Assembly (NCBI GenBank): GCA_964291465.2
Contig: OZ219935.1
Location: forward strand, 8,229 to 72,228
Length of the DNA stretch: 64,000 nt
Origin: Dehalococcoidia bacterium
GTDB lineage: Bacteria; Chloroflexota; Dehalococcoidia; Lucifugimonadales; JAGWBF01
Direction: 5' to 3'
Part shown: positions 26,261-52,855 of the stretch, piece after piece
Numbering within the stretch: position 1 is the first letter of the stretch
How the letters are laid out: each line of letters begins with the position of its first letter
Translations under genes and position numbers: made by a program
Notes under the pieces: generated by a model
The model's input: only the letters and a program-made list of their open reading frames with translations
Database searches by the model: none
Told to the model about the DNA's origin: nothing

Positions 26261-26922
26261 GACACCTCCCGGGCCGCGGGCCCGCCGAGGGTCTTGGCGA
26301 AGAACTCCACGGCGTGCCCCGTCGCCTCGGCTTCCCTATCCCACCAGAAGTGGTCCACTCCCTGGGCTATCCGCCACTCCACCGGCCCTCTCATGGACTC
26401 CAGCCGCTCCGTCAGGGGCCCCACGGGCGCCGACTCGTCGCTGTCGCCGCACACGACGAGCTTGGGCCTGGGGTCGGCGTCGATCCCGGCGTGCTCCAGG
26501 AATCGGACGGGCGGCGAGAACAGGACGATGGACCTGGCCGATGCGTAGCCGGACAGGTTCCGGAGAATGACACCGGTCCCGAAGGAGTAGCCGGCGATGC
26601 CCAGGCGGGCCGCGTCGACGCCCTCGGCCTCCTCCAGGGTCCGCAGCGCGGCCTCGGCGTCCTGTACCTCCATCTCTCCCTCGGTGTGAGTCCCCTGGCT
26701 GTTGCCCACGCCCCGGAAGTTGAACCTGAGGGCGGCGAATCCGGCCTCCACCAGGCCGTGGTAGACCGAGAGCACCAGGTTGTTGTTCATGTTTCCGCCG
26801 CGCAGGGGATGGGGATGGCACAGCACGACGCCGGGGAACGGGCCGGGCCCCTGGTCGGGGAGCCCCAGGACCCCTTCCAGCTTCAGGTCCTCCGCATGGA
26901 ATGACAGGGCCGTCTGACGCAT
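26257..26922 (-). CDS. alpha/beta hydrolase (COG2945-like)
   Basis: 221 aa. It has VLCHPHPLRGGNMNNNLV and the nucleophile-elbow-like GYSFG. It overlaps the upstream gene by 4 nt. Confidence 0.72.
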   Translation of the reverse strand: MRQTALSFHAEDLKLEGVLGLPDQGPGPFPGVVLCHPHPLRGGNMNNNLVLSVYHGLVEAGFAALRFNFRGVGNSQGTHTEGEMEVQDAEAALRTLEEAEGVDAARLGIAGYSFGTGVILRNLSGYASARSIVLFSPPVRFLEHAGIDADPRPKLVVCGDSDESAPVGPLTERLESMRGPVEWRIAQGVDHFWWDREAEATGHAVEFFAKTLGGPAAREVS

Positions 26923-27206
26923 GCTTCAACCCCAGTCGAGATAGCCCCATCTTAAGTTCCAGGGGTGCTTTTGACAAGGCGGGTAGGTCGGGGCCAAGGG
27001 CATAGAGGAGTTGGCTTCGATGACGGGGAGCTTGCAGTGGAAACGTGCACAGCAGCGAAATGGGTAGGTCCAATCGAACACACTAGTCATTTGCGGGAAT
27101 TGAGCGCCGCGCTAGCTGGTTGACATTGAATTCTTGGGTAATGTCTAATATGAACGTACCGGAGTGGTAGTCGACGGACCCACTAGTCGGGAGTTACCAA
27201 CGGGCT

Positions 27207-27566
27207 ATGGTAGCAGCTACGCCACCCTATAGGGAGCAAGCGCACACATTTTTCAAGCAGGCACAAGACGAATTTGTGGCAGGAGACCTACGACAAGCGT
27301 CAGAAAAGGGTTGGGGAGCCGCCGCGCAGATGGTTAAAGCGGTAGCCGAATGTCGCGGATGGGACCATAGGACACATAGGGACTTGAACCGCGTGGTAGC
27401 TCGCCTAGACGACATGCAATTGAATAACGATTTTGGCTTGGCACAAAGCCTCCATCAGAATTTCTATGAAGGTTGGCTCGAAGAGTCACAGGTCGAGCAA
27501 TATTTATCGGCGGTCGGCGCGTTCTTGGATAGACTAACCCCCCACGCAGACGACCAACACGCCTAG
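27207..27566 (+). CDS. PaREP1 family (HEPN-superfamily-like) protein
   Basis: 119 aa. RQASEKGWGAAAQMVKAVAE...H..L...LAQSLHQNFYEGW matches the PaREP1 pattern (QASEK.W.AA..VKA.A...LH.NFYE). Confidence 0.55.
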   Translation: MVAATPPYREQAHTFFKQAQDEFVAGDLRQASEKGWGAAAQMVKAVAECRGWDHRTHRDLNRVVARLDDMQLNNDFGLAQSLHQNFYEGWLEESQVEQYLSAVGAFLDRLTPHADDQHA

Positions 27567-27689
27567 TACCTAGTGAGGGCAATAAGTCCCCGGACAGGCT
27601 ACGGGACGTGTATCAACCGGGGATGATTGGCCGCTTGGAAAATTCCGCACGCCGCGCATTGACTTCCGGCCAAATATATGCGAATGTAA

Positions 27690-27767
27690 AAGAGTAGGAG
27701 TCAGGGGACCACTCGACCGGCTTGGTACGCCGGAGCGAGAGAAACGCCCCCCCTGGCTCCTACTCTT
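27690..27767 (+). repeat. long inverted repeat (18-bp arms, 42-nt spacer)
   Basis: 27690-27707 (aagagtaggagtcagggg) pairs with 27750-27767 (cccctggctcctactctt). There are 17 Watson-Crick pairs plus one U-G pair that is only valid on the + strand. It is followed by the AT-rich palindrome ttgatatatcaa (27766-27777). Confidence 0.6.
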
Positions 27768-27910
27768 GATATATCAATGCTAATGCTTATATAAACCCGT
27801 GTCAATACCGCGAGCCCCCGTACCGGCCCACACACCGAGCGCCAGCACCGTTAACGGCCCCTATCGACCCCTCTTCTTGCGCCCAGCTTTGTCCCCACCC
27901 CGCGGCCAAG

Positions 27911-28192
27911 ATGCGCTTCTCGCGAGGTACGCCCAAGATGGATGATAGGCTAATCAACTCCATCGGGTTAGCCCTTGACATCATTGGCGTCATTCTCGTC
28001 TATAGGTTTGGGATCGCCTCCGATGTGAGGCCAAGAGCTAGCGGGACCGTGATTCAATTTCCCCCTTACCCCACCGAAACTGAGCAAAGAGAAACGAGGG
28101 CACGATGGAAACGTTACCAGCGAATGGCGCTGCTCGGTTTGCTTTTTTTAGTGATAGGGCTGGCTCTGCAAGTGGCCAGCAATTACATCTGA
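27911..28192 (+). CDS. small 2-TM membrane protein, unknown function
   Basis: 93 aa with two hydrophobic helices (IGLALDIIGVILVY and MALLGLLFLVIGLALQVA) flanking a ~40-aa charged, Pro-rich loop. Confidence 0.4.
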   Translation: MRFSRGTPKMDDRLINSIGLALDIIGVILVYRFGIASDVRPRASGTVIQFPPYPTETEQRETRARWKRYQRMALLGLLFLVIGLALQVASNYI

Positions 28193-28270
28193 GCTCCGTC
28201 TGGGGGACCACTTAAAGAATGCCCACGTGCCCGGCCCTGCGCCGGCGCGGCTACGGCAGCATCACAATGG

Positions 28271-28546
28271 TCACCGCGGGGCTGGCCGAAAAGGCCCTAA
28301 CTGGAATGGCTCCTCGGTTGGGAATGTCACCTTGAAGTCGTCGCCGGAGTCGCAACGGTCAGGGTGCCCCAATATCTCGGAATCCTTCTCCCCCCAAGGA
28401 CGGTAGTCGCTTATGGCTTGCTCCAAGGACGGGCGTTCCCTTCCGGCGTAGTCACAAGGCGGCGCAGCGGTGATGTACAGGTACAGCGCCACCCCGAGCC
28501 CACCGCCGAGCACAGCCCCAATGGCCAACGACCGGAGCACCATCAC
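28271..28546 (-). CDS. small N-terminally anchored protein, unknown function
   Basis: 91 aa with a single N-terminal TM (LAIGAVLGGGLGVALYLYI). No recognisable domain. Confidence 0.3.
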   Translation of the reverse strand: MMVLRSLAIGAVLGGGLGVALYLYITAAPPCDYAGRERPSLEQAISDYRPWGEKDSEILGHPDRCDSGDDFKVTFPTEEPFQLGPFRPAPR

Positions 28547-28889
28547 GGGGCACCGCTTTTTGGGCGGGCCGCTCCTAGGCGGGCAATAGTCGCAAGGTAC
28601 CCTAGGTTGCCGCGCCGCGCACCGGCACCTTCTTAGGATACGCTGCCTGCATCGTGCAGGGCCGAATGGTAGCTGTCTGCGCTAGCGGGGCTCATGCCCC
28701 CATTCTACTCCTAGGGGCGGAGATGGGGAAGGCCCGGCGGCGAACGTCGTCCTAGGCAGGGCCATAGGTCTGGACGAATGCCGCAGAATGAGCGGGAGCC
28801 CAGCTAGGGGGGCGGGACGAGGCGAGGTCGCCGTGGTTATTTTACTGCGGGCCAAGCGCCGCCCCCTTAAAGGCGAAGGGGCGGGCCGG

Positions 28890-29141
28890 TTAAAAGATGG
28901 TCGGCGGGGTGGGCGGGGATATGTGAAACGGCCCTACCTCGGCCCTCAACTCGTTAAGGTCAATCCCGGTATTGCGTAGAGCGTTTTGGACCACAACCTC
29001 TGGCAGAGAGGTAACCCCGGCGGGGAGCACAATGACCTCCCGCAATCTTTCCAGCACTAACTCGCCGCCCTGTATGTTCAGGGTTTTGAACCCGCGCTTA
29101 TAAAGACTATCTAGTAATCTATCTTGCTGCCATCGGTGCAT
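28890..29141 (-). CDS. HicA-like (YcfA-fold) small protein lacking the catalytic His
   Basis: 83 aa. LLDSLYKRGFKTLNIQGGELVLER..VIVLPAGVTSLPEVVVQNALRNTGIDLNELRAE follows the HicA pattern (GF..., vvP..., l..il+q.Gi..eef), but GGE replaces GSH. Confidence 0.35.
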   Translation of the reverse strand: MHRWQQDRLLDSLYKRGFKTLNIQGGELVLERLREVIVLPAGVTSLPEVVVQNALRNTGIDLNELRAEVGPFHISPPTPPTIF

Positions 29142-29436
29142 AATCTAGCCGGAATGACTCCTGCGGCTCATACTCCAAATTCACTTCCGGCAAATGGCGG
29201 ATGTCTAGCCCGATGGAGTGTATTGCGGGGTTTTCGACCATTTGGGAGGCGGCAAGGTATGTTAAGAACGAGCGGATGAGGCTCTGTGTCGCCGCGTCTT
29301 GTGTCCATCCAATGCCGCTGATGGGATATTCGTCGCACACAAGTATTATGCTCTCGCCATCCCGATAAACGTTCCCGCTTAAGGTATATGTCTGCGACAT
29401 TTTGGCTGTTCCCTTATCGCTATCTTCCGCAGGCAC
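29119..29436 (-). CDS. HicB-like small protein
   Basis: 105 aa (GTG at 29436, alternative ATG at 29400). YTLSGNVYRDGESIILVCDEYPISGIGWTQDAATQSLIRSFLTYL resembles the HicB N-terminal fold pattern. It overlaps the downstream gene by 23 nt. Confidence 0.35.
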   Translation of the reverse strand: MPAEDSDKGTAKMSQTYTLSGNVYRDGESIILVCDEYPISGIGWTQDAATQSLIRSFLTYLAASQMVENPAIHSIGLDIRHLPEVNLEYEPQESFRLDYAPMAAR

Positions 29437-29475
29437 AAAACGCCCCCCCTACCGCGGAAATTGTCCCCTCGCCCG

Positions 29476-29511
29476 CATATTGTATCATGGGAAGGCCCGG
29501 CCCACAATATG
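29476..29511 (-). promoter_or_regulatory. candidate sigma70-like promoter with overlapping inverted-repeat operator
   Basis: On the minus strand there is TTGTGG (29507-29502), a 17-nt spacer, and TACAAT (29484-29479) with an upstream TG. An 8-bp inverted repeat, catattgt (29476-29483) and acaatatg (29504-29511), covers both hexamers. Confidence 0.4.
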
Positions 29512-29754
29512 GCCCCTCGCTTTAGCGAGGCGCATAAGGACAGGTGTTTTAGACAGGGGTCTAATACTCGAAGTAGTAGACGCTCCACCCAGCGAAAATG
29601 CTGTCCGGGTCGGCCCCGCCCCCGGAGGCCGCGCAGCCGCGCTGTCGCGCTTCCGAGGTCTCCCGCCGCTGGGCATCTACCCTGGACAACCCGGCAATAT
29701 ACCTACCCTACAAGGCATTGCTTCCCCTCCTATTTGGTCAACGATTTCCTCAAA

Positions 29755-29791
29755 CCCTAGGCCGGTATGCTATCCGCATACCGGCCTAGGG
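29755..29791. terminator. perfect 16-bp stem / 5-nt loop hairpin at the 3' end of the HEPN-like gene
   Basis: ccctaggccggtatgc-tatcc-gcataccggcctaggg. The stop codon of ORF 29757-30329 lies inside the left arm. There is no clear U-tract. Confidence 0.4.
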
Positions 29792-30329
29792 CATTGTAGA
29801 TCATTATCAAGAAATCGGCCTCAAATTCTACCCACCACTTTCCCAGCGAGTATTCCTCGAAAGAGTATCTCCGCAGGAACAGCGTGGCATCGTCAAGATG
29901 TACCAGCATGTCGTGGAATGATGGCCCCACAACATAAGCTGGCCCGTCCGGAGCGGGGGCGCGAGTTGTCAATGCTCTTGCTATCGTCTTGCATTCGCCT
30001 GCATCCCATTCTTGAATGGTGGCCTTGTACGCCGTATCTAGGTCGGCTTGTATCCCCTTGTCGAATAAACCATATAGCTCCGCCAGGGAATGGGTGCGCA
30101 ATGACTTCGCGGCTGCCGAGGAGTTCAGTTTGTGGTGGATTAACTTTAGTCCTAGCTCGATAGCTAAGCCGGCGTTGACCATCATTGCAGTCTTAAGGCT
30201 GGTGCGGGCCGTTGAAGAGGGCTGAGCGCCAATAGAGGCTATGTGATCCTCAGATAGCCGCGCTATCTCAGCAAAGGCGCGGGCATCGCACGTAAGTTTG
30301 GTTAGTTGGTCCGGGGTAAGACGTGACAT
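29757..30329 (-). CDS. HEPN-like alpha-helical protein, unknown function
   Basis: 190 aa. GLAIELGLKLIHHKL...LRTHSLAELYGLFD resembles the classical HEPN helix pattern (a.E..lK.l....THdL..L). There is no canonical Rx4-6H. Confidence 0.35.
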   Translation of the reverse strand: MSRLTPDQLTKLTCDARAFAEIARLSEDHIASIGAQPSSTARTSLKTAMMVNAGLAIELGLKLIHHKLNSSAAAKSLRTHSLAELYGLFDKGIQADLDTAYKATIQEWDAGECKTIARALTTRAPAPDGPAYVVGPSFHDMLVHLDDATLFLRRYSFEEYSLGKWWVEFEADFLIMIYNALGRYADSIPA

Positions 30330-30445
30330 TTTTGGAGCCCCTCCATAGCGTGTGCAGCGAGGTGGCGAGGGCGATAAGGGTTGAACGGAGCGGGAATGGG
30401 CGTTCCTGGTGGCCCCGCACTTGGGCGTGGTATAGTGCGTTTGCG

Positions 30446-30985
30446 ATGCTACAGCCCATGCTCCGTACTGCGCGGTATTTGCTAGAGCTACCTCGCCGAA
30501 TGCTGCGTAATACGCGAGGGCTCCTTAGCTCGCGGCTCCGTGTATGCTACGACGCCGATGCCGATGTCACAGGCGAGGCACTTGTGCTAGCCGGTATGAA
30601 GTTGGGCGGGTGCATAGCAGCTGTGATGGTCTTGGTCCTATTTGATGCGCTATGGGTGCTCGGGATAACGGTTTTGCCAAGCGCTAAGGCCCCGCTGTAT
30701 GCAATAGTGACGGCCGCCGCATTGTGCGCAGCCGCCATACCTTGGGGGGCAGCCCCGTCCCGCGATGGGCGGTTCTTGAGCTGGGGCTGTCGTGCTGTGG
30801 CCGGCATCGCCAGTGTTGATACCGGGGTTAATTGGATGCTCGGAGCCGACCCACCGTATATGCTGCGATTCGTGGGTTTGACATTGGGTCTGGCATCTAT
30901 GGCAAGCCTGGCCATTGCAATAGTGATGGTCCGTAGATTGATGAAGCGGCTAGGGCAGGAACGCATTACGCAATATGGAAGCTAG
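30446..30985 (+). CDS. multi-TM membrane protein, unknown function
   Basis: I prefer the ATG at 30446 inside track ORF 30323-30985, which has at least 4 hydrophobic helices. TGgTATAGT (30428-30436) lies just upstream. It is divergent from the HEPN-like gene. Confidence 0.4.
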   Translation: MLQPMLRTARYLLELPRRMLRNTRGLLSSRLRVCYDADADVTGEALVLAGMKLGGCIAAVMVLVLFDALWVLGITVLPSAKAPLYAIVTAAALCAAAIPWGAAPSRDGRFLSWGCRAVAGIASVDTGVNWMLGADPPYMLRFVGLTLGLASMASLAIAIVMVRRLMKRLGQERITQYGS

Positions 30986-31207
30986 GCCCAACAGAGCCAG
31001 GGCGACACCAGCCACCTTGAGGTACCAAGGCCACGGTTCTGAGGATTCGCGGTCGCTGTCGCGGTCGTTCATCTCCCCCCCATGTGTATGCCGTCTGAGA
31101 CCATGCTAGATGTGTCACGCCGGATTGTCAACGAGATTGACCCGCCCCGGCCATGTCCCCAGGCGGGCCGAGTGCCAGGACTTCCGCCGAGAGGGGGGCG
31201 AGCCTAC

Positions 31208-31414
31208 CTACCACCCCAACCTTGCCGCGTTATCCTCGTTCATGTACTCCAGCGGCTCCCCCTCAACGATAAAGGCCTTGGGCGACGCTTCCGGCCCCGT
31301 CACTACTTCCGGGGCGGCCACGTACTGAAACGGCCACCACCGCCCTATCGCCAACCATACCTCGGCCTCGGCATCGCACATCTCTAGTGCGGCTATCAAT
31401 TCCTTGACCAGCAT
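31208..31414 (-). CDS. small hypothetical protein (phage-like N-terminus)
   Basis: 68 aa. The MLVKELIAALEMCDAEAEVW opening is common in small phage and island proteins. It lies 25 nt downstream of the preceding ORF. Confidence 0.35.
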   Translation of the reverse strand: MLVKELIAALEMCDAEAEVWLAIGRWWPFQYVAAPEVVTGPEASPKAFIVEGEPLEYMNEDNAARLGW

Positions 31415-31439
31415 TCAACGGCTCCTTAGCGGCGCGGGA

Positions 31440-31757
31440 TTAGGATGTGGCGACTTCCCGCAGCACAAGGGCCAGCGCGCACATCGCGCCTAGGCCCCAG
31501 GCAGCGACGGCCAGCCCCCACACGGCCAAGTTGCCGGGCCGCCACCGCATTATCGTCGCCCCCAGACAGGCCACGAAGGCTAGGTCAACCAGAACAAGTA
31601 GGGCCAAATACAACGGCGTCGGGGCGCCGACGAGCTCGATGGCAACGTTCTTCGCCACCCCCAATCCGAACATGACCATGGTGGCCCGTCCCCAAGGGAA
31701 CCGTAGCCACCATCCATCGGCATCCACCATCGGGATAAACCCGGCAACCTTGCGCAT
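31440..31757 (-). CDS. small membrane protein, unknown function
   Basis: 105 aa with 3 hydrophobic helices and GAGGAGG 8 nt upstream of the ATG. Confidence 0.42.
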   Translation of the reverse strand: MRKVAGFIPMVDADGWWLRFPWGRATMVMFGLGVAKNVAIELVGAPTPLYLALLVLVDLAFVACLGATIMRWRPGNLAVWGLAVAAWGLGAMCALALVLREVATS

Positions 31758-32313
31758 GTACTCCGCCTCCTCGTTGCCGGAAAAAGGGGAAGCCCCCCTC
31801 CGGCAAGGATTTAGCCTCTCGCCACAAGTTGCCGCATCTCCTCGGATTGAACCGAAGCCCAGAGGGGGGCACGAGCCCTTGCTCGTAGCTTCGGCTCAGG
31901 GAGTTCCGAGGAGGCCGGGGTACCTTGTGGCGAAGGCAGAGCCGAGTATACGCCCGCCCCTCTGGCGGGTCAACCGGCACTTGGGGGGACTTGGGGGGGC
32001 GGGTTCGGGGCGGGGGCGAGGTGGACCCTAGAGGGACATCAGTGGGATGCACGTGGATGCACGTGCGTCCCCTTGTGCTGTAACCATGATGGTGGTATAG
32101 TACCCCTTAACGGGTACTTTTAAACAAAAAGAACGAGCCACACACCCCCTCCCCCCGTCAAGGGAACTCGGCCTTCGGTGTTTGCGGCACCATTGAAGAC
32201 CAAGGTTGTCAGGCGCGATGCCGCTCGTTCAATCAAGACCATATCACAAAGCGGGTCGGGTGGGGAGGGGAGAATCGCCACCAAATTAGGTATACCCGCC
32301 GAAGGAGGAGCTA

Positions 32314-32736
32314 ATGACCCCAGAGGATACTAAGGCAAACCCGGCCCACCAACGGCTTATCAAACTGTCGGAGCTCTTCGCCAAGCTGGCCGAGGTATCG
32401 GCGGAGCATGAGCGTACAGGCGCGGAGAAGGCCGCCCTGGAGGCCGAGATAAACGAGCTGGCCGGCACCGCGATATGCCCCGCCAGCGACCAGGCCCCGG
32501 CCCGGCCCGTCGGCTCAAACACCGACCTTTATGTGCAGATTCTCCGGGAGAATGGCCGCCCCATGCACGCCAAGGAGATCACTCAACAGGCCCTGGCCCG
32601 CGGCCTCCAGCTGGCGGGCAAGATAGACAAGGCTCCGGAAAAGAAGGTGAGACACGCCCTGCACAGTTGCGATGATGTATACAACCTCGGCAGTAATTTT
32701 TGGTGGTTAACCGGGCAACCGGTCCCCGAGCCATAG
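32314..32736 (+). CDS. HARE-HTH (winged-helix) domain protein with N-terminal coiled coil
   Basis: 140 aa with GAAGGAGGAG before the ATG. LYVQILRENGRPMHAKEITQQALARGL...KKVRHALHS.DDVYNLGSNFWWL fits the HARE-HTH pattern. Confidence 0.55.
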   Translation: MTPEDTKANPAHQRLIKLSELFAKLAEVSAEHERTGAEKAALEAEINELAGTAICPASDQAPARPVGSNTDLYVQILRENGRPMHAKEITQQALARGLQLAGKIDKAPEKKVRHALHSCDDVYNLGSNFWWLTGQPVPEP

Positions 32737-32750
32737 CCTAAGAACTGGTC

Positions 32751-32784
32751 GGGGCCGGGAGACGTTGCACCGTCTCCCGGCCCC
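32751..32784 (+). terminator. 14-bp GC-rich hairpin downstream of the HARE-HTH gene
   Basis: ggggccgggagacg-ttgcac-cgtctcccggcccc, starting 15 nt after the stop codon. There is no U-tract. Confidence 0.45.
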
Positions 32785-32828
32785 TATGCCAAAACAGGAG
32801 TCCCTCGCCTAGGCGCGATTTAACTCGT

Positions 32829-34055
32829 ATGGCACCTACTAATTGTAGCATACTGGCCCAGGGCCGGTTTCCGGGCGGAGAGCTAGCCTGCCTGGAAGCC
32901 ACCCTTGATGCCCTTGACGATCGGGCGCTGGTTGGCCATATGGTCGAGCACCGGCGTAATGGCCGCCCAGGGTACCCGGCCCGCGTGATGCTGAGGGCCT
33001 ACGCCGTATCCTTCGCCCTCAACCTAAGCAGCACCAACGCCCTAATTAGGCTGCTTAGGCGGGACGCGGCCATTAGGGATATGTGCGGGTTCGAGGGGCT
33101 TAACCTCCCCTGCCGCCGTACCTTCAATCACTTCATACGCTGGCTGGCCCGGCACCTGGATATGGTGGAGGGCATGCTGGCCGGCGTAACTGACGAGCTC
33201 CGCCAGTACCTGTCCGACCTGGGCGACGTGGTGGCCATTGATTCAACGAACGTCCGCACCCACAGCAACCCAAACCGACGCCGTGTAAGTGACCCCGAGG
33301 CCGACTGGGGCGTGAAACATAGCCCGCGGGCCAAGGCCGGGGACAAGGAGTTCTTCTACGGCTACAAGGTGCACATGGTGGCCGACGCCACCCACGGCCT
33401 GCCCCTGGCTGTGATAGTCACCGCGGGCAACCGAAACGACACACTGCTGCTGCCTCGCGTGATGGACCGGGCGGCGGGCATGTATCTGTGGTGGAGTCCC
33501 AGGGTGGCGATAGCCGACCGGGGTTACGACTCGTACGCGAACCATCACTGGCTTGATACGCGGGGCGTGGCGGCGGTGATCCACATCAGGAGGGCCACCG
33601 CCCACGACAAGCTATACGACGGGGTGTACACCACGGACGGCGTCCCGGTATGCCTGGGGCAGGTGCCGATGGAGTACGCGATGACGGACCCTAAAACCGG
33701 CCAGCATCTCTACGTGTGCCCGGAGGGCGGCTGCCACCTAAAGGAAGGCGGGCGCGGGGGCATCACATACTGCGATTCCGAGGTGTGGGAAGACCCGCGG
33801 GGCAACCTGCGCGTATCGGGCGGGCGGGTGCGCCGGGACAGCGCCGAATGGCGAGCCTACTACCGGCAGCGGCAATCCATAGAGCGGGTGTTCAAGGGGA
33901 TGAAAGAGAGCCGCCGGCTGGAGCGGCACTACACGCGGGGCCACCGCATGATAGCCCTGCATGCCACGATGAGTACGTTGGTCTACCAGGCCAACGCGCT
34001 GGCCCGGCTTAGGGCCGGGGCGGGCATGCTGTGGCAGGTAGATAGGGTGGGATGA
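32829..34055 (+). CDS. DDE transposase, IS4/IS5 family
   Basis: 408 aa. It has an N-terminal InsH-like domain and a DDE_Tnp_1 core (VVAIDSTNV..., IADRGYDS..., YRQRQSIERVFKGMKE...). Confidence 0.85.
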   Translation: MAPTNCSILAQGRFPGGELACLEATLDALDDRALVGHMVEHRRNGRPGYPARVMLRAYAVSFALNLSSTNALIRLLRRDAAIRDMCGFEGLNLPCRRTFNHFIRWLARHLDMVEGMLAGVTDELRQYLSDLGDVVAIDSTNVRTHSNPNRRRVSDPEADWGVKHSPRAKAGDKEFFYGYKVHMVADATHGLPLAVIVTAGNRNDTLLLPRVMDRAAGMYLWWSPRVAIADRGYDSYANHHWLDTRGVAAVIHIRRATAHDKLYDGVYTTDGVPVCLGQVPMEYAMTDPKTGQHLYVCPEGGCHLKEGGRGGITYCDSEVWEDPRGNLRVSGGRVRRDSAEWRAYYRQRQSIERVFKGMKESRRLERHYTRGHRMIALHATMSTLVYQANALARLRAGAGMLWQVDRVG

Positions 34056-34075
34056 AAACTAAAGAGGAGTTGATT

Positions 34076-34234
34076 ATGGAGACGGAGATACGGTTGGTGG
34101 TTCGGTGCCCGAAGGCCCGTTGCCAGAAGGACGAGGCGGTATCCGACCCCTTGGAGTTTATGGCGGAACATCTGGCCCTGGACGGGTGGCCCTGCGGGCA
34201 CGACGGGCCGGGGCTGTTCGTCGGGCTCGCGTAA
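34076..34234 (+). CDS. small Cys-containing ORF directly after the transposase
   Basis: AAAGAGGAG lies 6 nt before the ATG at 34076. The ORF is 52 aa, METEIRLVVRCPKARC...WPCGH. It is followed by the hairpin aaaggcc-ccacc-ggccttt (34234-34252). Confidence 0.3.
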   Translation: METEIRLVVRCPKARCQKDEAVSDPLEFMAEHLALDGWPCGHDGPGLFVGLA

Positions 34235-34349
34235 AAGGCCCCACCGGCCTTTAGTTGCTGACTATTCATGTGATTAGCGGGGGGGACTCTTCCCCTTACC
34301 GTTAGGAGGCTCGGCAATCGTCCCCTGCTGAACGAAAGTAGCCTTGGGC

Positions 34350-34991
34350 TCAGGATGCACCTTGAAATAGGCGGGACGGCAGCACCCACAACAAGGCAAA
34401 CACGGCCCCCAACAGCCCAAATGAGCCCAGAGTTAACAACAAGAATGCGACGTCCAGCTTACCTGGGGTTTGCTTGTCTGCCTCTCGGGCTTTTGGAATC
34501 AGGTTAGATACGGTCAGGAAGACTAGCATCATGCCTGCCGCTGGGATAAGTGCGGTCAAAAACGGGACGGGATTCCCACCGGTGGCGCTCAAAAGCCAGA
34601 ACCAACCTGCTGCGCCCGCTGCAACCACGCTGGTGATGGCAGACAACAAACTGAGGCGCCGGGTAGGCTTGTCGGAGGTCCAAAGGCTAACAGCCAGAGC
34701 TCCGGCACCCAGTACCGCCAGGGTTGCGGCCTTCGCACTGTATAGCTGGGTCGGGCTCAATGCTGCTTCGGCCAGCGGAATTTCCCATCCGGGGACAGCC
34801 GGATTCCGAAAGTCGGCCATGATAGTAGCGATCACAAGCCCGGCGATTGCCGACCATAGGACGCGGCGAACCTGGAAGGTCACCCCGGTGCGGGTGGGGC
34901 GGCGGAAGACAAAATTAGAACATAGCCGACGCCACAGACTCATAGAGGCTGCCAGTAACCGCGCCAAGCGCGTGACCGCGACGGCTATCAC
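34350..34991 (-). CDS. multi-TM membrane protein, unknown function
   Basis: 213 aa with about 5-6 hydrophobic helices and no recognisable domain. Confidence 0.4.
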   Translation of the reverse strand: MIAVAVTRLARLLAASMSLWRRLCSNFVFRRPTRTGVTFQVRRVLWSAIAGLVIATIMADFRNPAVPGWEIPLAEAALSPTQLYSAKAATLAVLGAGALAVSLWTSDKPTRRLSLLSAITSVVAAGAAGWFWLLSATGGNPVPFLTALIPAAGMMLVFLTVSNLIPKAREADKQTPGKLDVAFLLLTLGSFGLLGAVFALLWVLPSRLFQGAS

Positions 34992-35367
34992 GGGGCGATT
35001 GTATCACGCAAGACCTCGTGCCGGAGAGCTAGAGCAGCTCCAGCGTGCTGTAGTGATTTGGGCGTCTGGGGACCGGCGGGGTAGGACTTAGAAGTTGACC
35101 CGGTAAGCCCGCAAACATCTAACCACGGCCCGCGCCTGCTTTGACGGACTTCCCCCGTACGTACCCCCGATTGGCCGGCGTTACCTCCTGGGCTAAGAGC
35201 ACGTATCCCATAACCCCTTCTTCTCTCTGAGCATACCGCTTGAGGGCGCGGACATCGAGAGATTGTGGGCTCCGACATAGCCGAAGTACAATGGCCCCAC
35301 CACGTCAAAGGAGGGTTCAAACATTAGCGTATACGAACGGTTCCTCAGGATTGCTTGGATATACAAA

Positions 35368-36027
35368 TTGTTTTTGGCCGCTGCCCTTATAGCGGGTGGG
35401 GTCTATGCCCATACTAACCACAGCCTGATAACTGACGCTGGCATCCGGGCAGCTCTTATGGGAGTCTGTGCTGCCGGCATCCTATTCGTCGATATGCTGC
35501 CCAATACAGGCGGACCGTATGGCGCCATAGCCACGGGGTTCGTTCGTATCGGCGGGGCGCTACTTACCGTGGGGGCGGGCTGGCATTGGGTCGCTAGCAC
35601 AACCGATGGAGAACCGTGGCGTTACCTATGGCCCATGCTGTTCGTGATTCTGCTAATGTTGCCTGGTATGGTTGGCGGCGCGTTGATGTCGGTGTTCGTC
35701 GTACAACCGCGGCAAACCCAACCCGACCGATGGCACGCGGTCCTAGACGCGCTTGGCGGCGAGGCCGAACGATTTCGTGAGGCAATGTATGATGACAAGA
35801 CCCGCCCCGATGAAATTGCAGGAATCGTTATGGCCCTAGAGGTACAATTGGCCAATCTCCTCATGTTTCTCAGATACGATCCCAAGAGCGGGCTCGGCCG
35901 CAAAGACCTTGCCCGTCTTCTCCAATATGCCGACACGCCGACAAGCGATAGCCCGATTGCAGACGCTTCCCGAGGCCACTTTCGGCGCGTGCGCGCTTAT
36001 GTACGCAGCATTATGGGCGAACCGTAG
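35368..36027 (+). CDS. membrane protein with soluble C-terminal domain, unknown function
   Basis: 219 aa with a weak TTG start. It has about 4 TM helices followed by a ~100-aa helical cytoplasmic tail. Confidence 0.38.
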   Translation: MFLAAALIAGGVYAHTNHSLITDAGIRAALMGVCAAGILFVDMLPNTGGPYGAIATGFVRIGGALLTVGAGWHWVASTTDGEPWRYLWPMLFVILLMLPGMVGGALMSVFVVQPRQTQPDRWHAVLDALGGEAERFREAMYDDKTRPDEIAGIVMALEVQLANLLMFLRYDPKSGLGRKDLARLLQYADTPTSDSPIADASRGHFRRVRAYVRSIMGEP

Positions 36028-37733: not shown

Positions 37734-38060
37734 ATGGCTGGGACATATCCGGTTACGGACCAGGACTTCGAGGAGAAGGTGCTGCAGTCGGACATGCCCG
37801 TACTGGTCGACTTCTGGGCCGACTGGTGCATGCCCTGCAAGATGATAGCGCCCATCGTCGAGGAGCTATCCCAGGAGTACGACGGGAAGGCGGGGTTCGC
37901 CAAGCTCGACGTGGACGCCAACCCCACCACGGCGATGACCTACGGGGTGCGCAGCATCCCGACCCTGCTGGTGTTCAAGGGCGGCCGGCCCGTGGACCAG
38001 ATCGTCGGCGCGGTGCCCAAGGGCGCCCTGAAGAAGAAGATCGACTCCGCCCTGGAGTAG
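37734..38060 (+). CDS. trxA: thioredoxin with non-canonical WCMPC active site
   Basis: 108 aa. VLVDFWADWCMPCKMIAP...PTLLVFKGG is a thioredoxin fold with Met replacing the usual Gly. Confidence 0.88.
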   Translation: MAGTYPVTDQDFEEKVLQSDMPVLVDFWADWCMPCKMIAPIVEELSQEYDGKAGFAKLDVDANPTTAMTYGVRSIPTLLVFKGGRPVDQIVGAVPKGALKKKIDSALE

Positions 38061-38073
38061 GACGTCCCGGCAA

Positions 38074-38169
38074 GGGAGTGGATGGGGCCCGGTGGCTCTT
38101 GCGGACTTCAAATCCGTTGTGCCTCGTTAGCACGGGGTAGGTGGGTTCGACTCCCTCCCACTCCCGCCA
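38074..38169 (+). tRNA. selC: tRNA-Sec (anticodon UCA), CCA encoded
   Basis: Structural features:
- 8-bp acceptor stem GGGAGTGG/CCACTCCC, discriminator G, CCA.
- 6-bp D-stem (38084-89 with 38094-99) and 4-nt D-loop CGGU.
- Anticodon loop CUUCAAA, with TCA at 38108-38110.
- 23-nt variable arm.
- 5-bp T-stem with one U-U mismatch, and T-loop TTCGACT.
This is the bacterial 8/5 tRNA-Sec architecture. The blocks GGACTTCAAATCC and GGTTCGACTCC match E. coli selC. Confidence 0.85.
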
Positions 38170-38279: not shown

Positions 38280-39845
38280 CTAGTCCCCCTCGGACTCAAC
38301 CATCACCCGTACCCTGGCTTTGGCGCTTTCCAGGTCTTGGGCGCGGTTGTCTGGGCGCAGGGTCCCGAACGCGGTCAGCATCGTTCCGGGTTGCCCGTGT
38401 AGCCCGGAAACTACCACCGGCTTGCGGTCTATGACCTTGCCGATGAGTGACGCTGCAGTATCGTCCAGATAGTCAGTGCGGCTGAAGTCCATGATGGTCG
38501 CCCGGCTGGCCTGTATGGCTCCGCCAAGAATCCTGGCAAGCTCTCGTGCGGACGCCACAGACACTCTATCAGGCATGACTATCAGCCCGACCCTCGCTTG
38601 GTAGGGGTCTGAGTCGGGCCATATCTCGGTATCGAGAAGTGGCACGGACACCAGCCGCTCTAGCTCACGTCTGTGGGACTGTGTAGCGTCCACCAGTGTG
38701 GACAGGACCAGCCCCGCTAGAATCGCCATCGTGAAGTCGATGAGCAACGCGACAGCGGCGGTCACCAGCATCACCACCGTATAGCCGACGGGTATGCGCC
38801 GGACCCGTCGCAAGAACTCCCAGTCCACGAGCCGGTAGCCCGTGACCATGATGATGCCCGCAAGCATGGACAGCGGGACCCGGTTGAACGGCACCATCAA
38901 AGCCAATGCGACCACCACCGCAGACGTCACACCTGCAATCTTGCCCCGACCACCTGATTGCAGGTTCAGGAACGTGATCGAGCTGACGCCCCCGGGATTA
39001 CCTCCGATGAGTCCCGCCACGACGTTACCGACACCCTGGGCCACCAGCTCCCGGTTCGGCTGATGGCGCCCGCCGGTCGTGGCGTCGGCCTGCAGGCAAG
39101 TTAGCAGCGTCACGGCGGAACACAGCAGGGCCATTGTGAAGGCCGATGGAATTACCTGTGGCTCAAATGCGGGCCAGATTAGCGTCGGCAAGCCTCGCGG
39201 CACCTCGCCTATCACGGGAGCACCGGTGAACCAGATGATTCCGGCTGCGCTCCCCACCAACAGGGCCACGAACTGGCCCGGAGCATACCTGGACAGCCGG
39301 GCTGGCCAAAAGACCCCGACCGCCACGGTTACCACGGCAACAGCGAGAGCGTCAAAGTCGACGGTTGCGCTACTCCATGCTCTGACACTGCCGACGACAC
39401 CGCCCGACGCCGGAGGCAGACCGATGGCTGGCAAGACCTGGGTGACGACCAGGACCATGCCCGCGGCGGTGAAGAATCCCGACAACAACGAGTGGGGGAT
39501 GTAGACGACAAACCGCCCAAGTCTGGTGAATCCGAAGACCATAAGGAAAACACCGGATACGAGAGCGGCTGTAAACCCGGCCTCCACCCCATGCTCGGAT
39601 ACCACCGACGCCAGGACGATTGTGACAAATATGTTGGGGCCTGAGATGAGCCCGCGGGTGTTCCCCATGATTGCAGCCAGAAGCCCGAGCACGATAGCCC
39701 CGTGGAGGCCCGCCACTGGCCCCAGGCCCGCAATGACACCGTAGGCCATCGCCGTTGGCACCAAGACAACACCGACCAACACCCCGGCCAACAGGTCAGT
39801 GGATATGCTTCTCATCGGACTGTCCGGGACTGCTGACGTGGTCAA
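38280..39845 (-). CDS. SulP family anion permease with C-terminal STAS domain
   Basis: 521 aa with a multi-TM Sulfate_transp core and a soluble STAS-like tail (ATIMDFSRTDYLDDTAA). Confidence 0.85.
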   Translation of the reverse strand: MTTSAVPDSPMRSISTDLLAGVLVGVVLVPTAMAYGVIAGLGPVAGLHGAIVLGLLAAIMGNTRGLISGPNIFVTIVLASVVSEHGVEAGFTAALVSGVFLMVFGFTRLGRFVVYIPHSLLSGFFTAAGMVLVVTQVLPAIGLPPASGGVVGSVRAWSSATVDFDALAVAVVTVAVGVFWPARLSRYAPGQFVALLVGSAAGIIWFTGAPVIGEVPRGLPTLIWPAFEPQVIPSAFTMALLCSAVTLLTCLQADATTGGRHQPNRELVAQGVGNVVAGLIGGNPGGVSSITFLNLQSGGRGKIAGVTSAVVVALALMVPFNRVPLSMLAGIIMVTGYRLVDWEFLRRVRRIPVGYTVVMLVTAAVALLIDFTMAILAGLVLSTLVDATQSHRRELERLVSVPLLDTEIWPDSDPYQARVGLIVMPDRVSVASARELARILGGAIQASRATIMDFSRTDYLDDTAASLIGKVIDRKPVVVSGLHGQPGTMLTAFGTLRPDNRAQDLESAKARVRVMVESEGD

Positions 39846-50707: not shown

Positions 50708-51748
50708 ATGGCAAGCAGCGGCACGGGGTCCGGCATGGTCGGGGCCAGCGACTCCATCGAGGCCATCGAGGAGTGCTACAGACTGGGCTGGACCGACGGC
50801 CTGCCCGTCGTGCCTCCCGCCGACTACAAGGTCCGGCAGATGCTGGACGCGGCCGGGCTCGACGGGAGCGAGCCGTTGCTGGAGCTGAGGATGCGCCGGC
50901 GCCTCCTTACAGCCGAGAACGCCGCCGCCTGCGCCGTCATGGCCGGCTGCCTGCCCGAGTACTTCCCGGTACTGGTGACGGTCCTGAGGGCGCTGGACGA
51001 GGAGACCAACGTCGTCCACGGCTTCTCCGCCTCCACCAGCTCTCCCGTGCCCGTCCTGCTGCTCAACGGCCCCATCCGCAAGGAGATCGGGATAAACTGC
51101 GGCCACGGCCTGTTCGGCCCCGGCAGCCGCGCCAACGTCACCATCGGGCGGGCCATCCGCCTGGTCTTCATCAACGGCTTCGACGCCCGGCCCGGCACCC
51201 TGGACCGGGGCACCATGGGGGACGTGGGCAAGTTCAGCCTCTGCATCGGGGAGGACGAGGAGGGCAGCCCCTGGGAGCCCTTCCACGTCGAGCGGGGGTT
51301 CCGGGCCGGGGACAGCACCGTCACCGTCGCCTCGGGACACGCCCCGGTGACGGTCAACAGCCGCCACGGAACCGACGCAGAGAGCATACTACTCGCCTTC
51401 GCCGACACCATGTGCTCCGGGGCCATGACCATCGGCTGGCCTTGCGAGTGGATGCTGGTCGTGGGCCCCGAGCATGCCAGAACCCTCCGGGACGAGGGGT
51501 ACGACAAGGCCGCCATCCGGGGGTTCCTCCTGGAACACGCCAGGCGCCCGGTGGAGGAGCTGAAGCGCATGGGCATGTATCCGGGGAAGATCGAGGCGGG
51601 AGACGCCTCCACCATAGCCGTCGCCGCCAAGTCCCCCGGGGACATCTTCGTGCTGGCCGCCGGCGGCGACGGAGGCCGGTACAGCTCCATCATCAACCTG
51701 GCCATCTTCAGGGCCAAGACCCGGAAGATCGAGGCCCCCGGGGCCTAG
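50708..51748 (+). CDS. conserved hypothetical protein (~346 aa)
   Basis: ATG at 50708 after ACGGAGG, inside alternate-frame track ORF 49703-51748. It has coding-like composition and a GWTDGLPVVPP motif, but I recognise no domain. Confidence 0.55.
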   Translation: MASSGTGSGMVGASDSIEAIEECYRLGWTDGLPVVPPADYKVRQMLDAAGLDGSEPLLELRMRRRLLTAENAAACAVMAGCLPEYFPVLVTVLRALDEETNVVHGFSASTSSPVPVLLLNGPIRKEIGINCGHGLFGPGSRANVTIGRAIRLVFINGFDARPGTLDRGTMGDVGKFSLCIGEDEEGSPWEPFHVERGFRAGDSTVTVASGHAPVTVNSRHGTDAESILLAFADTMCSGAMTIGWPCEWMLVVGPEHARTLRDEGYDKAAIRGFLLEHARRPVEELKRMGMYPGKIEAGDASTIAVAAKSPGDIFVLAAGGDGGRYSSIINLAIFRAKTRKIEAPGA

Positions 51749-51797
51749 ACACGCAGCCCGCCCGGGCGGCGGGGACACGACGAGTAAAGGAGGAGCG

Positions 51798-52358
51798 GTG
51801 GCGACGGAAGTAATGGTAAGAGGTCTGCGGCTCGTGGACCCCACCGGCAAGGACATGGACCCCGAGGAGTTTCGTCTCACCAACAGGCCCGACGACCTGA
51901 GGGGAAAGACCCTGGGCCTGCTGGAGAACAGCAAGGCGAACTCGGACAAGGTGCTCAAGGAGCTGGGCGAAATCCTGGACCAGGAGTTCGAGTTCAGGGA
52001 CGTCCTCTACTTCAGCAAGCACAACGCCTCCCTGCCCACCAAGCCCGAGGTGATAAAGGACATCCTGGAGACGTGCGACATCCTGGTCATCGGAGTCGGG
52101 GATTGAGGGGGCTGCAGCTCGTGCAGTGTGCACGACGGAATCGAGATGGAGAAGCTGGGCATCCCCACGGCCACCATCATCACCGACATCTTCGACAACA
52201 CGGCCAAGGCCATGGCCCGGATGATGGGAGTCCCTGACTTCAGCTACGGGGTGGCCAGCCACCCCCTGTCCAGCCTGACGCCCGAGGGGATAACCGAGCG
52301 GGCCCGCCAGCTTGCGCCCCAGGTGAAGAAGATCCTCCTGGAGGGCAGGGCGGCCTAG
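51798..52358 (+). CDS. candidate selenoprotein (UxxC motif; UGA 52104-52106 read as Sec)
   Basis: Track ORFs 51798-52106 and 52128-52358 are in the same frame, separated only by TGA. The read-through gives ...CDILVIGVGD-U-GGCSSCSVHDGIEMEKLGIPTATIITD.... AAGGAGGAG lies before the GTG at 51798. A SECIS-like hairpin follows the TGA, and tRNA-Sec is present in this window. Confidence 0.6.
52107..52136 (+). other. SECIS-like stem-loop
   Basis: A 6-bp stem (52119-24 with 52130-35) with an AGUGU loop starts 12 nt after the UGA. An alternative hairpin, GCUGCA-GCUCG-UGCAGU, lies at 52111-52127. Confidence 0.4.
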
Positions 52359-52855
52359 GCCTCTTCCACTTCCGCCGCAGCCTCGTACTTGGAGGGGCAC
52401 TTCACGATCACCGTGTCGGTGTGGAACACCCCCCCGTCCCCGAAGCTGCCCTGCAGCACTATGTCCGAGTGGGGGTTGAAGAAGAGGTCCGGCAGGACGC
52501 CGTCGTAGACGCTGGGCAGCGCCTCGCCCTGGTCCGCAAGGGAGAAGGTCGCCAGGGTGGTGCCATCCACCCTCTGGAAGGAGTCGGGCACCAGCTTGCC
52601 CATGACCCGCAGGCTCCTCCCGTCCTGGTTGGTCTCGTCGGCCAGGAACTCGTCGACGGTGACGTAGTAGAGGGTATTCCCAGGGAAGGCGGCGTAGATA
52701 AGGTATCCCAGCGCCAGGACCAATACGAGCCCTACGACTAGCAGCCTGGTCTTATTGTTGATGATCCCGTTGCCTTCCGCCGCGGTCTCCAGGGGACCGC
52801 TCTTCTCGCCTTCTATCATATCCTGACTTTCACGGGCATGTCCTGACCGGCACAA
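52355..52855 (-). CDS. ccmE: cytochrome c maturation heme chaperone CcmE, CxxxY variant
   Basis: 166 aa (alternative start ATG at 52819). It has an N-terminal TM, an OB-fold (LRVMGKLV...), and a C-terminal VKCPSKYE where canonical CcmE has HxxxY. Confidence 0.8.
   Translation of the reverse strand: MCRSGHARESQDMIEGEKSGPLETAAEGNGIINNKTRLLVVGLVLVLALGYLIYAAFPGNTLYYVTVDEFLADETNQDGRSLRVMGKLVPDSFQRVDGTTLATFSLADQGEALPSVYDGVLPDLFFNPHSDIVLQGSFGDGGVFHTDTVIVKCPSKYEAAAEVEEA

What the first reader, a model, noticed from the sequence alone, without database searches (positions are those of the whole stretch)
51798..52358. Candidate selenoprotein: in-frame UGA in a UxxC motif with a SECIS-like hairpin
The two track ORFs (51798-52106 and 52128-52358) are in the same frame. 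TGA at 52104-52106 is the only interruption.

Read-through gives one 186-aa protein: ...KDILETCDILVIGVGD-U-GGCSSCSVHDGIEMEKLGIPTATIITDIFDNTAKAM.... This places Sec in a U-G-G-C (UxxC) redox-type motif, followed by a second Cys pair.

Coding-like sequence continues seamlessly across the stop. The second ORF has no RBS of its own.

Twelve nt after the UGA there is a 6-bp stem with an AGUGU loop (52119-52135). This resembles the spacing (about 11 nt) and the GU-containing apical loop of bacterial SECIS elements.

tRNA-Sec is encoded 14 kb upstream in this same window.

The layout is reminiscent of small Sec/Cys redox proteins such as the family NCBI labels 'UGSC family (seleno)protein'. I cannot verify membership.
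Basis: partly seen in the sequence, partly recalled or inferred. Interest (0 to 1): 0.7.

Follow-up and report, generated by a model that had tools for sequence, protein, structure and literature searches.

The report
UGSC-family selenoprotein gene with SECIS
The two short ORFs are one gene for a selenocysteine-containing protein of the already described "UGSC" family, with a working-looking recoding hairpin right after the UGA; the call is correct but the family is known, and the main new lead is a conserved, uncharacterised partner gene next to it.

Summary
Window 51798-52358 (+) is one frame with a single TGA at 52104-52106.

- **Family:** with U read as C, the 186-aa product passes the curated cutoffs of NCBIfam NF041046 and Pfam PF24696.
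- **TGA conservation:** the TGA is at the same codon in all 80 Dehalococcoidia/SAR202 genome loci (one also has an extra in-frame stop) and in 79/79 scorable divergent metagenome loci.
- **Cys forms:** rare full-length Cys forms align across both halves, with Cys at the Sec column.
- **Hairpin:** the 17-nt hairpin (52119-52135) shows frozen synonymous sites in SAR202. In divergent relatives it shows compensatory changes (0/500 shuffles reach the score).
- **Loop position:** its loop G and U lie at nucleotides 23-24 from the UGA, as in E. coli fdhF.
- **Sec trait:** tRNA-Sec is in the window. selA, selB and selD are not, and cannot be assessed in 64 kb.

The family is a long-known selenoprotein of unknown function, so this is a new member of a known kind.

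Additions from this work:
- The motif is the rare U-G-G-C variant.
- The "second Cys" lies in the hairpin-coding stretch and is not family-conserved.
- A confident model looks flavodoxin-like, not thioredoxin-like.
- An uncharacterised 346-aa gene (50708-51748) is a conserved same-strand neighbour, even across swapped gene order.

The parts
51798..52358 (+). UGSC-family selenoprotein gene (GTG start, 186 codons including Sec, TAG stop)
   Evidence: Single frame. NF041046 scores 140.8 bits against a cutoff of 125. PF24696 scores 190.7 bits. Orthologue N-termini begin MAT/MAE at the same point.
51789..51793 (+). Shine-Dalgarno-like GGAGG, 4 nt before the GTG start
   Evidence: Read directly from the sequence.
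52104..52106 (+). UGA read as selenocysteine (residue 103)
   Evidence: TGA is at this codon in 80/80 genome loci and 79/79 metagenome loci. Cys is aligned here in full-length homologues.
52104..52115 (+). U-G-G-C motif (a rare variant of U-G-S-C)
   Evidence: Of 159 homologous Sec-form loci, 157 read UGSC. Only L001 and L002, plus the window itself, read UGGC. The Cys form P0361 reads CGGC.
52119..52135 (+). SECIS hairpin: stem 52119-52125 with 52129-52135, loop GUG at 52126-52128 (G23 and U24 counted from the U of UGA)
   Evidence: Synonymous sites are frozen. RNAalifold consensus keeps 7 pairs in 77/77 sequences. Covariation at pairs 18-30 and 19-29, with 0/500 shuffles reaching the score. 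Rival hairpin A is unsupported.
52101..52103 (+). GAU codon directly 5' of the UGA, invariant in 78/78 SAR202 sequences
   Evidence: Synonymous entropy is 0 at D102, while other Asp codons vary. Its role is inferred only.
50708..51748 (+). Conserved partner gene: 346-aa uncharacterised protein, 49 nt upstream of the UGSC gene
   Evidence: Same-strand upstream neighbour in 70/80 SAR202 loci and next to the UGSC gene in 42/45 divergent loci. No Pfam, NCBIfam or PDB-sequence relative. Family of more than 4,700 proteins.
38074..38169 (+). tRNA-Sec (anticodon UCA)
   Evidence: ARAGORN. Rfam RF01852, 71.2 bits against a gathering score of 47.

Best explanation
Window 51798-52358 is a single gene for a 186-residue selenoprotein of the UGSC family.

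**Decoding.** During translation the UGA at 52104-52106 is read as selenocysteine. A 17-nt hairpin starting 12 nt downstream (52119-52135) presents a G-U-containing apical loop at nucleotides 23-24 from the UGA. This is the geometry that SelB-GTP-Sec-tRNA(Sec) uses on E. coli fdhF. The tRNA-Sec gene lies in the same window. This decoding step is strongly supported by comparative evidence, but not shown biochemically.

**Protein.** The model is a single alpha/beta domain. Sec103 sits between strand 95-101 and helix 105-119, followed by Cys106. The family-conserved polar residues (N44, K46, N48, K74, D102, H155) all follow strands of the model.

**Inferred function.** My inference is that U103 and C106 form a redox-active selenol/thiol pair that cycles through a selenenylsulfide. 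I further infer that the protein works together with the product of the adjacent 346-aa gene (50708-51748). Chemistry and substrate are unknown.
For: - **Family membership:**
- **TGA conservation:** TGA at the same codon in 80/80 Dehalococcoidia/SAR202 loci and 79/79 divergent metagenome loci.
- **Database truncation:** 120/120 best database homologues stop at residue 102. 85/85 hits to the second half are separate short ORFs. Most of the top 150 cluster representatives, down to 30% identity, end at the same point.
- **Cys forms:** full-length Cys forms align across both halves with Cys at the Sec column.
- **Downstream half is translated:** it is conserved as protein while its synonymous sites vary.
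- **TGA is an ordinary stop here:** for example purL and ccmC end in TGA.
- **SECIS, synonymous constraint:** normalised synonymous entropy is 0.118 for codons 106-113 against 0.670 elsewhere (Mann-Whitney p = 4e-6), while pairwise 4-fold-site difference elsewhere is 0.55.
- **SECIS, pairing:** all 7 pairs are kept in 77/77 sequences.
- **SECIS, covariation:** in 44 distinct divergent sequences 96.8% of cells pair. Pair 18-30 shows GC/GU/CG/AU/UA and pair 19-29 shows UA/CG/GU. No shuffle of 500 reaches the score, and slid registers collapse.
- **Loop:** G23 and U24 are invariant while position 25 takes all four bases.
- **fdhF reference:** sequence verified in E. coli genomes. The rule (stem-loop at nt 15-31, G23/U24, SelB contact) is taken from PMC8659212.
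- **tRNA-Sec:**
- **Structure:** AF2 pLDDT 89.7, pTM 0.84.
- **Partner linkage:**
Against: - No selA, selB or selD among the window ORFs scanned. The window is only 64 kb, so this is uninformative rather than negative.
- The hairpin lacks the bulged U (U17) that matters for E. coli SelB.
- No Rfam model matches the hairpin.
- Longer stretches around the hairpin do not fold better than shuffles.
- No experimental evidence of selenium incorporation exists for any member, as far as the papers read here say.
- The redox mechanism and the cooperation with the partner are inferences from motif, model and gene order.
- The structural model rests on 8 aligned sequences, and I could not inspect its coordinates.
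Confidence: 0.93

Rival explanations
1. Two independent genes. Translation ends at the UGA, giving a 102-aa protein, and a separate 76-aa protein starts at the GTG at 52128. This is how public gene callers annotate it.
For: Gene calls in public data split the locus this way everywhere. Termination at UGA would be the default outcome if selenium or SelB were limiting.
Against: - Full-length Cys forms are single proteins spanning both halves.
- Both halves hit one Pfam domain model end to end, positions 2-171 of 172.
- The 21 nt between the TGA and the GTG encode invariant residues.
- There is no ribosome-binding site before 52128.
- One confident compact domain is predicted across the junction.
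Confidence: 0.03
2. A pseudogene or a sequencing or assembly error created the in-frame TGA.
For: Single in-frame stops are common artefacts in metagenome assemblies. One relative, L070, does carry extra in-frame stops in both this gene and its neighbour.
Against: - The same TGA at the same codon occurs in 159 independently assembled loci.
- Purifying selection acts on the downstream half.
- A covarying hairpin sits at a fixed distance.
Confidence: 0.01
3. UGA is read through, but not as selenocysteine. It could be read as Trp, Gly or Cys through code reassignment or near-cognate suppression, with the hairpin acting as a generic read-through stimulator.
For: The Sec machinery genes were not seen in the window. 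Sec insertion has not been shown experimentally for this family in the papers read.
Against: - TGA is an ordinary stop for verified genes in the window.
- tRNA-Sec is encoded 14 kb away.
- The homologous residue in non-UGA forms is Cys, the hallmark of Sec sites.
- The loop G-U is at the SelB-type position.
Confidence: 0.03

Closest known systems
UGSC family (seleno)protein (NCBIfam NF041046; Pfam PF24696; 'UGSC-containing protein' of Zhang & Gladyshev, PMC2398784 and PMC1976440)
   Same: - Passes both curated HMM cutoffs.
- About 180-aa single domain.
- Sec at the first position of the U-G-x-C motif.
- Sec forms far outnumber Cys forms here, as reported for GOS: 255 Sec against 21 Cys.
- Aquatic, uncultured hosts.
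   Different: - The motif is U-G-G-C, not U-G-S-C. Only the window and 2 of the 159 homologous Sec-form loci share this.
- The literature guesses a thioredoxin-like fold. The model built here matches flavodoxin/Rossmann-like folds only weakly and matches no thioredoxin-fold protein.
E. coli fdhF-type bacterial SECIS element
   Same: - Hairpin directly downstream of the UGA within the coding sequence.
- 17-nt minimal stem-loop at nt 16-32, against 15-31 in fdhF.
- Loop G23-U24 at the identical distance.
- 3' arm GCAC at nt 27-30 in both.
   Different: - No bulged U17.
- 3- to 5-nt loop instead of 6.
- No supported lower stem.
- Binding by this organism's SelB is untested.
GrdB/PrdB reductase selenoproteins (Pfam PF07355), which also carry UxxC and act with a partner subunit
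   Same: UxxC motif. A conserved adjacent gene suggests a two-protein unit. This is an analogy only.
   Different: No sequence relationship: no PF07355 hit even at E <= 10 for 8 divergent members. The partner has no detectable relation to PrdA or GrdE, or to any other Pfam family.

Membership tests
UGSC family (seleno)protein (NF041046 / PF24696) | Whole-protein HMM score above the curated cutoff | tested here: met
   NF041046 scores 140.8 bits against a cutoff of 125, covering profile positions 2-146 of 147. PF24696 scores 190.7 bits against a cutoff of 25, covering 2-171 of 172.
UGSC family (seleno)protein (NF041046 / PF24696) | Sec (UGA) or Cys at the first position of the U/C-G-S-C motif after the G-x-G-D strand end | tested here: met
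   UGA at 52104-52106 follows VIGVGD, the same column as Sec in 159 loci and Cys in full-length forms. The third motif position is G rather than S, a variant also seen in the Cys form P0361.
UGSC family (seleno)protein (NF041046 / PF24696) | A single domain spanning both sides of the UGA | tested here: met
   Alignment with full-length Cys forms across residues 12-181. One compact model with pLDDT 89.7.
UGSC family (seleno)protein (NF041046 / PF24696) | Selenium actually incorporated at the UGA | not testable with these tools
   Needs 75Se labelling or mass spectrometry.
Bacterial SECIS (fdhF type) | Stem-loop starting about 11 nt 3' of the UGA, inside the reading frame | tested here: met
   The stem starts 12 nt after the UGA. 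The consensus structure is kept in 77/77 sequences. Covariation is supported, with 0/500 shuffles reaching the score.
Bacterial SECIS (fdhF type) | Conserved G-U in the apical loop at nt 23-24 from the UGA | tested here: met
   G23 and U24 are invariant in 44 distinct divergent sequences, while position 25 varies freely. The fdhF reference was verified, and the rule is cited from PMC8659212.
Bacterial SECIS (fdhF type) | Bulged U in the 5' arm (U17 in E. coli) | tested here: not met
   The stem is perfectly paired with no bulge. From my own knowledge, this feature is E. coli-specific rather than universal.
Bacterial SECIS (fdhF type) | Binding by SelB and SelB-dependent read-through | not testable with these tools
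   Needs biochemistry or a reporter assay.
Sec-decoding trait of the host | tRNA-Sec gene | tested here: met
   38074-38169 (+), anticodon UCA.
Sec-decoding trait of the host | selA, selB and selD in the genome | not testable with these tools
   None was found among 29 sizeable window ORFs scanned. Only 64 kb of the genome is available.
Thioredoxin-fold oxidoreductases (the fold proposed for this family in the literature) | Thioredoxin fold, with the redox motif at the N-terminus of helix 1 | tested here: not met
   The motif is at a helix N-terminus. However, the Foldseek top 50 PDB hits are lumazine synthase, flavodoxin, FtsZ N-domain, PTS IIB and the MetH B12 domain (TM <= 0.5), with no thioredoxin-fold protein. 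No thioredoxin-type Pfam hit appears even at E <= 10.
GrdB/PrdB selenoproteins (PF07355) | Sequence match to the GRDB model | tested here: not met
   No hit at E <= 10 for 8 divergent members.

The most novel reading that the evidence does not exclude
The UGSC selenoprotein and the adjacent ~345-aa protein (invariant Cys23 and Cys81; no Pfam, NCBIfam or PDB-sequence relative; more than 4,700 homologues) may form a previously undescribed two-protein selenoenzyme that is widespread in SAR202 and other aquatic bacteria. The Sec/Cys pair sits on a flavodoxin-like scaffold, not a thioredoxin-like one, and would act on a substrate or intermediate held by the partner. This is loosely analogous to the subunit logic of glycine and proline reductases. 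The pairing survives partner divergence to 30-46% identity and a swap in gene order, which is what a functional unit predicts.
Probability: 0.4. Interest if true: 0.65.

Novelty: new member of a known kind. Interest (0 to 1): 0.35.

Why it matters
For annotation: this gene and hundreds of its relatives are split into two "hypothetical" ORFs in public data. A simple rule recovers the true 180-190-aa selenoprotein: G-x-G-D, then TGA, then GSC, plus the UCGUGCAGUGUGCACGA-type hairpin.

For biology: UGSC proteins are among the most abundant selenoproteins in ocean metagenomes, yet their function has been unknown for nearly two decades. Three results from this work could make that question testable:
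- a conserved partner gene;
- a confident non-thioredoxin model, with the conserved residues following strands;
- evidence that the SSCSVH stretch is fixed by the RNA rather than by the protein.

Together these give concrete handles, such as co-expression, pull-down and U103/C106 mutants.

Tried and rejected
- **Rfam:** nothing at gathering thresholds except tRNA-Sec. A permissive scan of 52060-52200 gave only a meaningless 10-nt hit.
- **Rival hairpin A (nt 8-13 with 19-24):** it is the minimum-free-energy fold of the 42-mer. I rejected it because it shows no compensatory change, no excess over shuffles, and a broken 5' arm in many relatives.
- **Lower SECIS stem:** suggested by the 62-nt fold but not supported in the alignment.
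- **PDB sequence searches:** nothing convincing for the UGSC protein, the UGSC profile or the partner profile. The de novo TIM-barrel hits are short repeat artefacts.
- **Single-sequence AF2 of the read-through:** unusable, pLDDT 49.
- **Alignments of N-half and C-half fragments on the window scaffold:** misaligned by MAFFT and abandoned.
- **Is the 'Unknown_1' domain fused to UGSC in the GOS paper the partner?** Could not be decided. The figure is an image, and the stored datasets are cut.
- **Partner as a second selenoprotein:** rejected. The one in-frame TGA (L070) aligns with a variable column.
- **Small ORFs inserted between partner and UGSC in 22 loci:** heterogeneous insertions, not extra subunits.
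- **Most divergent clade (GH-U-GSCTTGTVRDG):** it has a different invariant 19-nt segment whose fold I could not resolve, because the segment does not vary.
- **Literature on SAR202 and selenocysteine:** nothing useful.

Full report
**1. The observation**

Window 51798-52358 (+) translates in one frame with a single stop, TGA at 52104-52106.
- The product is 102 residues + Sec + 83 residues = 186 aa, reading ...ILVIGVGD-U-GGCSSCSVHDGIEMEK...
- A GGAGG lies 4 nt before the GTG start. Nothing comparable precedes the GTG at 52128.
- The hairpin UCGUGC(A)-GUG-(U)GCACGA occupies 52119-52135, 12 nt after the UGA.
- tRNA-Sec is at 38074-38169.
- A window-wide scan for coding-like frames (GC3 > 0.8 on both sides) interrupted by one TGA returns this gene only.
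- TGA is otherwise an ordinary stop here, for example in purL and ccmC.

**2. Family membership**

With U read as C, the protein scores 140.8 bits on NCBIfam NF041046, 'UGSC family (seleno)protein' (cutoff 125). It scores 190.7 bits on Pfam PF24696, covering 171 of 172 model positions across the UGA. Eight divergent members hit only this Pfam family, even at E <= 10.

**3. Is the UGA conserved, and is Cys found there?**

- The 120 best homologues in the 5.8-billion-protein collection are almost all exactly 102 aa, so gene callers stopped at the same codon.
- All 85 hits to the C-terminal half are 47-92-aa fragments.
- In 80 genome loci, all Dehalococcoidia/SAR202 MAGs, the codon aligned to residue 103 is TGA in every one. 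It is followed by 83-90 open codons. One locus, L070, carries an additional TAG upstream.
- An exhaustive search of 1.84 billion cluster representatives found 679 relatives. Most of the top 150, down to 30% identity, end at the residue aligned to D102.
- A few are full-length and carry Cys at the Sec column: P0361 GD-C-GGC, and P0386/P0395/P0436 GD-C-GSC. P0408 has lost the motif.
- In 79 scorable divergent metagenome loci the codon is again TGA.

**4. The SECIS element**

*Within SAR202.* Nucleotides +9 to +32 after the UGA are almost invariant, including third codon positions.
- In 78 distinct sequences Ser108 is always UCG, Cys109 UGC, Ser110 AGU and Val111 GUG. Other invariant Ser, Val, Leu and Gly codons use 3-6 codons.
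- Normalised synonymous entropy is 0.118 for codons 106-113 against 0.670 elsewhere (p = 4e-6). Pairwise difference at 4-fold sites elsewhere is 0.55.
- RNAalifold selects the 7-bp hairpin. All pairs are kept in 77/77 sequences, and the only change is G-C to G-U.

*In divergent relatives.* The hairpin varies but stays paired.
- Pair 18-30 is GC (35), GU (5), CG (2), AU (1) and UA (1). Pair 19-29 is UA (42), CG (1) and GU (1).
- 96.8% of cells pair. None of 500 shuffles reaches the covariation score, and shifted registers collapse.
- The competing hairpin, nt 8-13 with 19-24, has no support.
- G23 and U24 are invariant, while position 25 takes all four bases.

*Comparison with E. coli fdhF.* I verified the fdhF sequence I recalled against E. 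coli genomes; it matched at 99% identity or better in 5,413 records. There the minimal element spans nt 15-31 with G23/U24 in the loop, and G23 contacts SelB (PMC8659212). The window's element spans nt 16-32, has G23/U24 in the loop, and shares GCAC at nt 27-30. It lacks the bulged U17. No Rfam model matches it.

**5. A consequence for the protein motif**

The peptide S-S-C-S-V-H is encoded by the hairpin.
- In Cys forms, which need no SECIS, this stretch diverges (TSWTVH, TAWTID, ASYSVY, SAATTA) and C109 is lost.
- Several divergent Sec forms also lack C109: GSCSARSM, GSCTSGSV, GSCTTGTV.

The 'second Cys pair' is therefore better explained by RNA constraint than by a second redox centre. U103, G104 and C106 are the conserved core. 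Position 105 is Ser in 157 of the 159 homologous Sec-form loci. It is Gly only in L001, L002 and the window itself.

**6. Structure**

A single-sequence model was useless (pLDDT 49). An 8-row alignment of the window protein (X at Sec) with full-length Cys forms gave pLDDT 89.7 and pTM 0.84.
- Order of elements: strand 38-43, helix 47-64, strand 68-73, helix 83-92, strand 95-101, U103, helix 105-119, strand 124-129, helix 130-142, strand 151-153, helix 162-182.
- Foldseek against the PDB found only weak three-layer alpha/beta/alpha matches: lumazine synthase (E = 5e-4), flavodoxin, FtsZ N-domain, PTS IIB and the MetH B12 domain, with TM <= 0.5. No thioredoxin-fold protein is in the top 50.
- The 'likely Trx-like fold' of the literature is therefore not supported. 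The domain has no close solved relative.
- The family-conserved residues N44, K46, N48, K74, D102, U103 and H155-P156 all follow strands. In this kind of fold that is where the ligand-binding edge lies. This is an inference; I could not inspect coordinates.

**7. Neighbourhood**

The gene 49 nt upstream (50708-51748, 346 aa) has no Pfam, NCBIfam or PDB-sequence relative.
- It belongs to a family of more than 4,700 proteins, all labelled hypothetical.
- Cys23 and Cys81 are invariant.
- It is the same-strand upstream neighbour in 70/80 SAR202 loci, within 200 nt in 43 of them.
- The other neighbours (ADH, DEAD helicase, ccm genes) are shared only with the two closest relatives.
- In divergent metagenome loci (partner 30-46% identical) it is again next to the UGSC gene in 42 of the 45 loci with enough flank. 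In the most divergent clade the order is swapped, with UGSC first and the partner immediately after. The two are not fused.
- ORFs inserted between the two genes in some loci are unrelated insertions.
- The partner is not itself a selenoprotein.

The papers read describe the family only as a selenoprotein of unknown function and do not mention this partner. A 'UGSC/Unknown_1' fusion is reported there, but I could not establish whether Unknown_1 is this protein.

**8. Verdict**

The gene is a genuine Sec-form member of a selenoprotein family known since about 2007 and now covered by NCBIfam and Pfam models. It is therefore a new member of a known kind, and interest is modest. The parts worth following up are:
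- the conserved partner gene;
- the non-thioredoxin fold;
- the overlap between the SECIS and the apparent second Cys.

selA, selB and selD could not be assessed.

Noticed in passing
window 50708-51748 (+): A 346-aa protein with no Pfam, NCBIfam or PDB-sequence relative. Its family has more than 4,700 'hypothetical' proteins, with invariant Cys23 and Cys81. It is a conserved same-strand neighbour of UGSC genes across deep divergence, and across a swap in gene order.
   Followed up: partly
L070:3228-4265 and L070:4916-5458: This relative has an extra in-frame TAG at UGSC codon 74, and an in-frame TGA at partner codon 204, which is a variable column. It is probably a degraded or mis-assembled copy.
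   Followed up: partly
window 52101-52103: The codon before the UGA is GAU in 78/78 SAR202 sequences, although the genome strongly prefers C or G at third positions. This may be a context requirement for Sec insertion.
   Followed up: no
L141-L161 (e.g. L148:2729-2773): The most divergent Sec-form clade reads ...GH-U-GSCTTGTVRDG. Its invariant 19-nt segment after the UGA (CCGGCACCGUGCGUGACGG) is different, and its fold could not be resolved. The partner gene lies downstream instead of upstream.
   Followed up: partly
window 37734-38169 and 38280-39845: tRNA-Sec sits 14 nt after an ordinary Cys-type thioredoxin gene (W-C-M-P-C). It is next to a SulP-family permease on the opposite strand.
   Followed up: no
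window 26000-36000: A lower-GC stretch (0.59-0.63, against about 0.68 elsewhere) with few strong ORFs and a DDE-type IS transposase at 32829-34055. It may be a mobile or foreign island a few kb from the tRNA-Sec gene.
   Followed up: no
protein P0443: A UGSC N-half carrying a ~127-aa N-terminal extension that resembles D-2-hydroxyacid dehydrogenases (my own reading of the sequence; not scanned), truncated at the Sec codon. It is either a real fusion or a gene-calling artefact.
   Followed up: no
window 52355-52358: The TAG stop of the UGSC gene overlaps the stop of the convergent ccmE gene (52355-52855, minus strand), within the palindrome CCTAGG. A ccmE/D/C/B cluster follows on the minus strand.
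   Followed up: no
L081:7001-7567: Public gene calls split UGSC genes into a ~102-aa ORF and a ~75-aa ORF essentially everywhere. Both halves carry the PF24696 label.
   Followed up: yes
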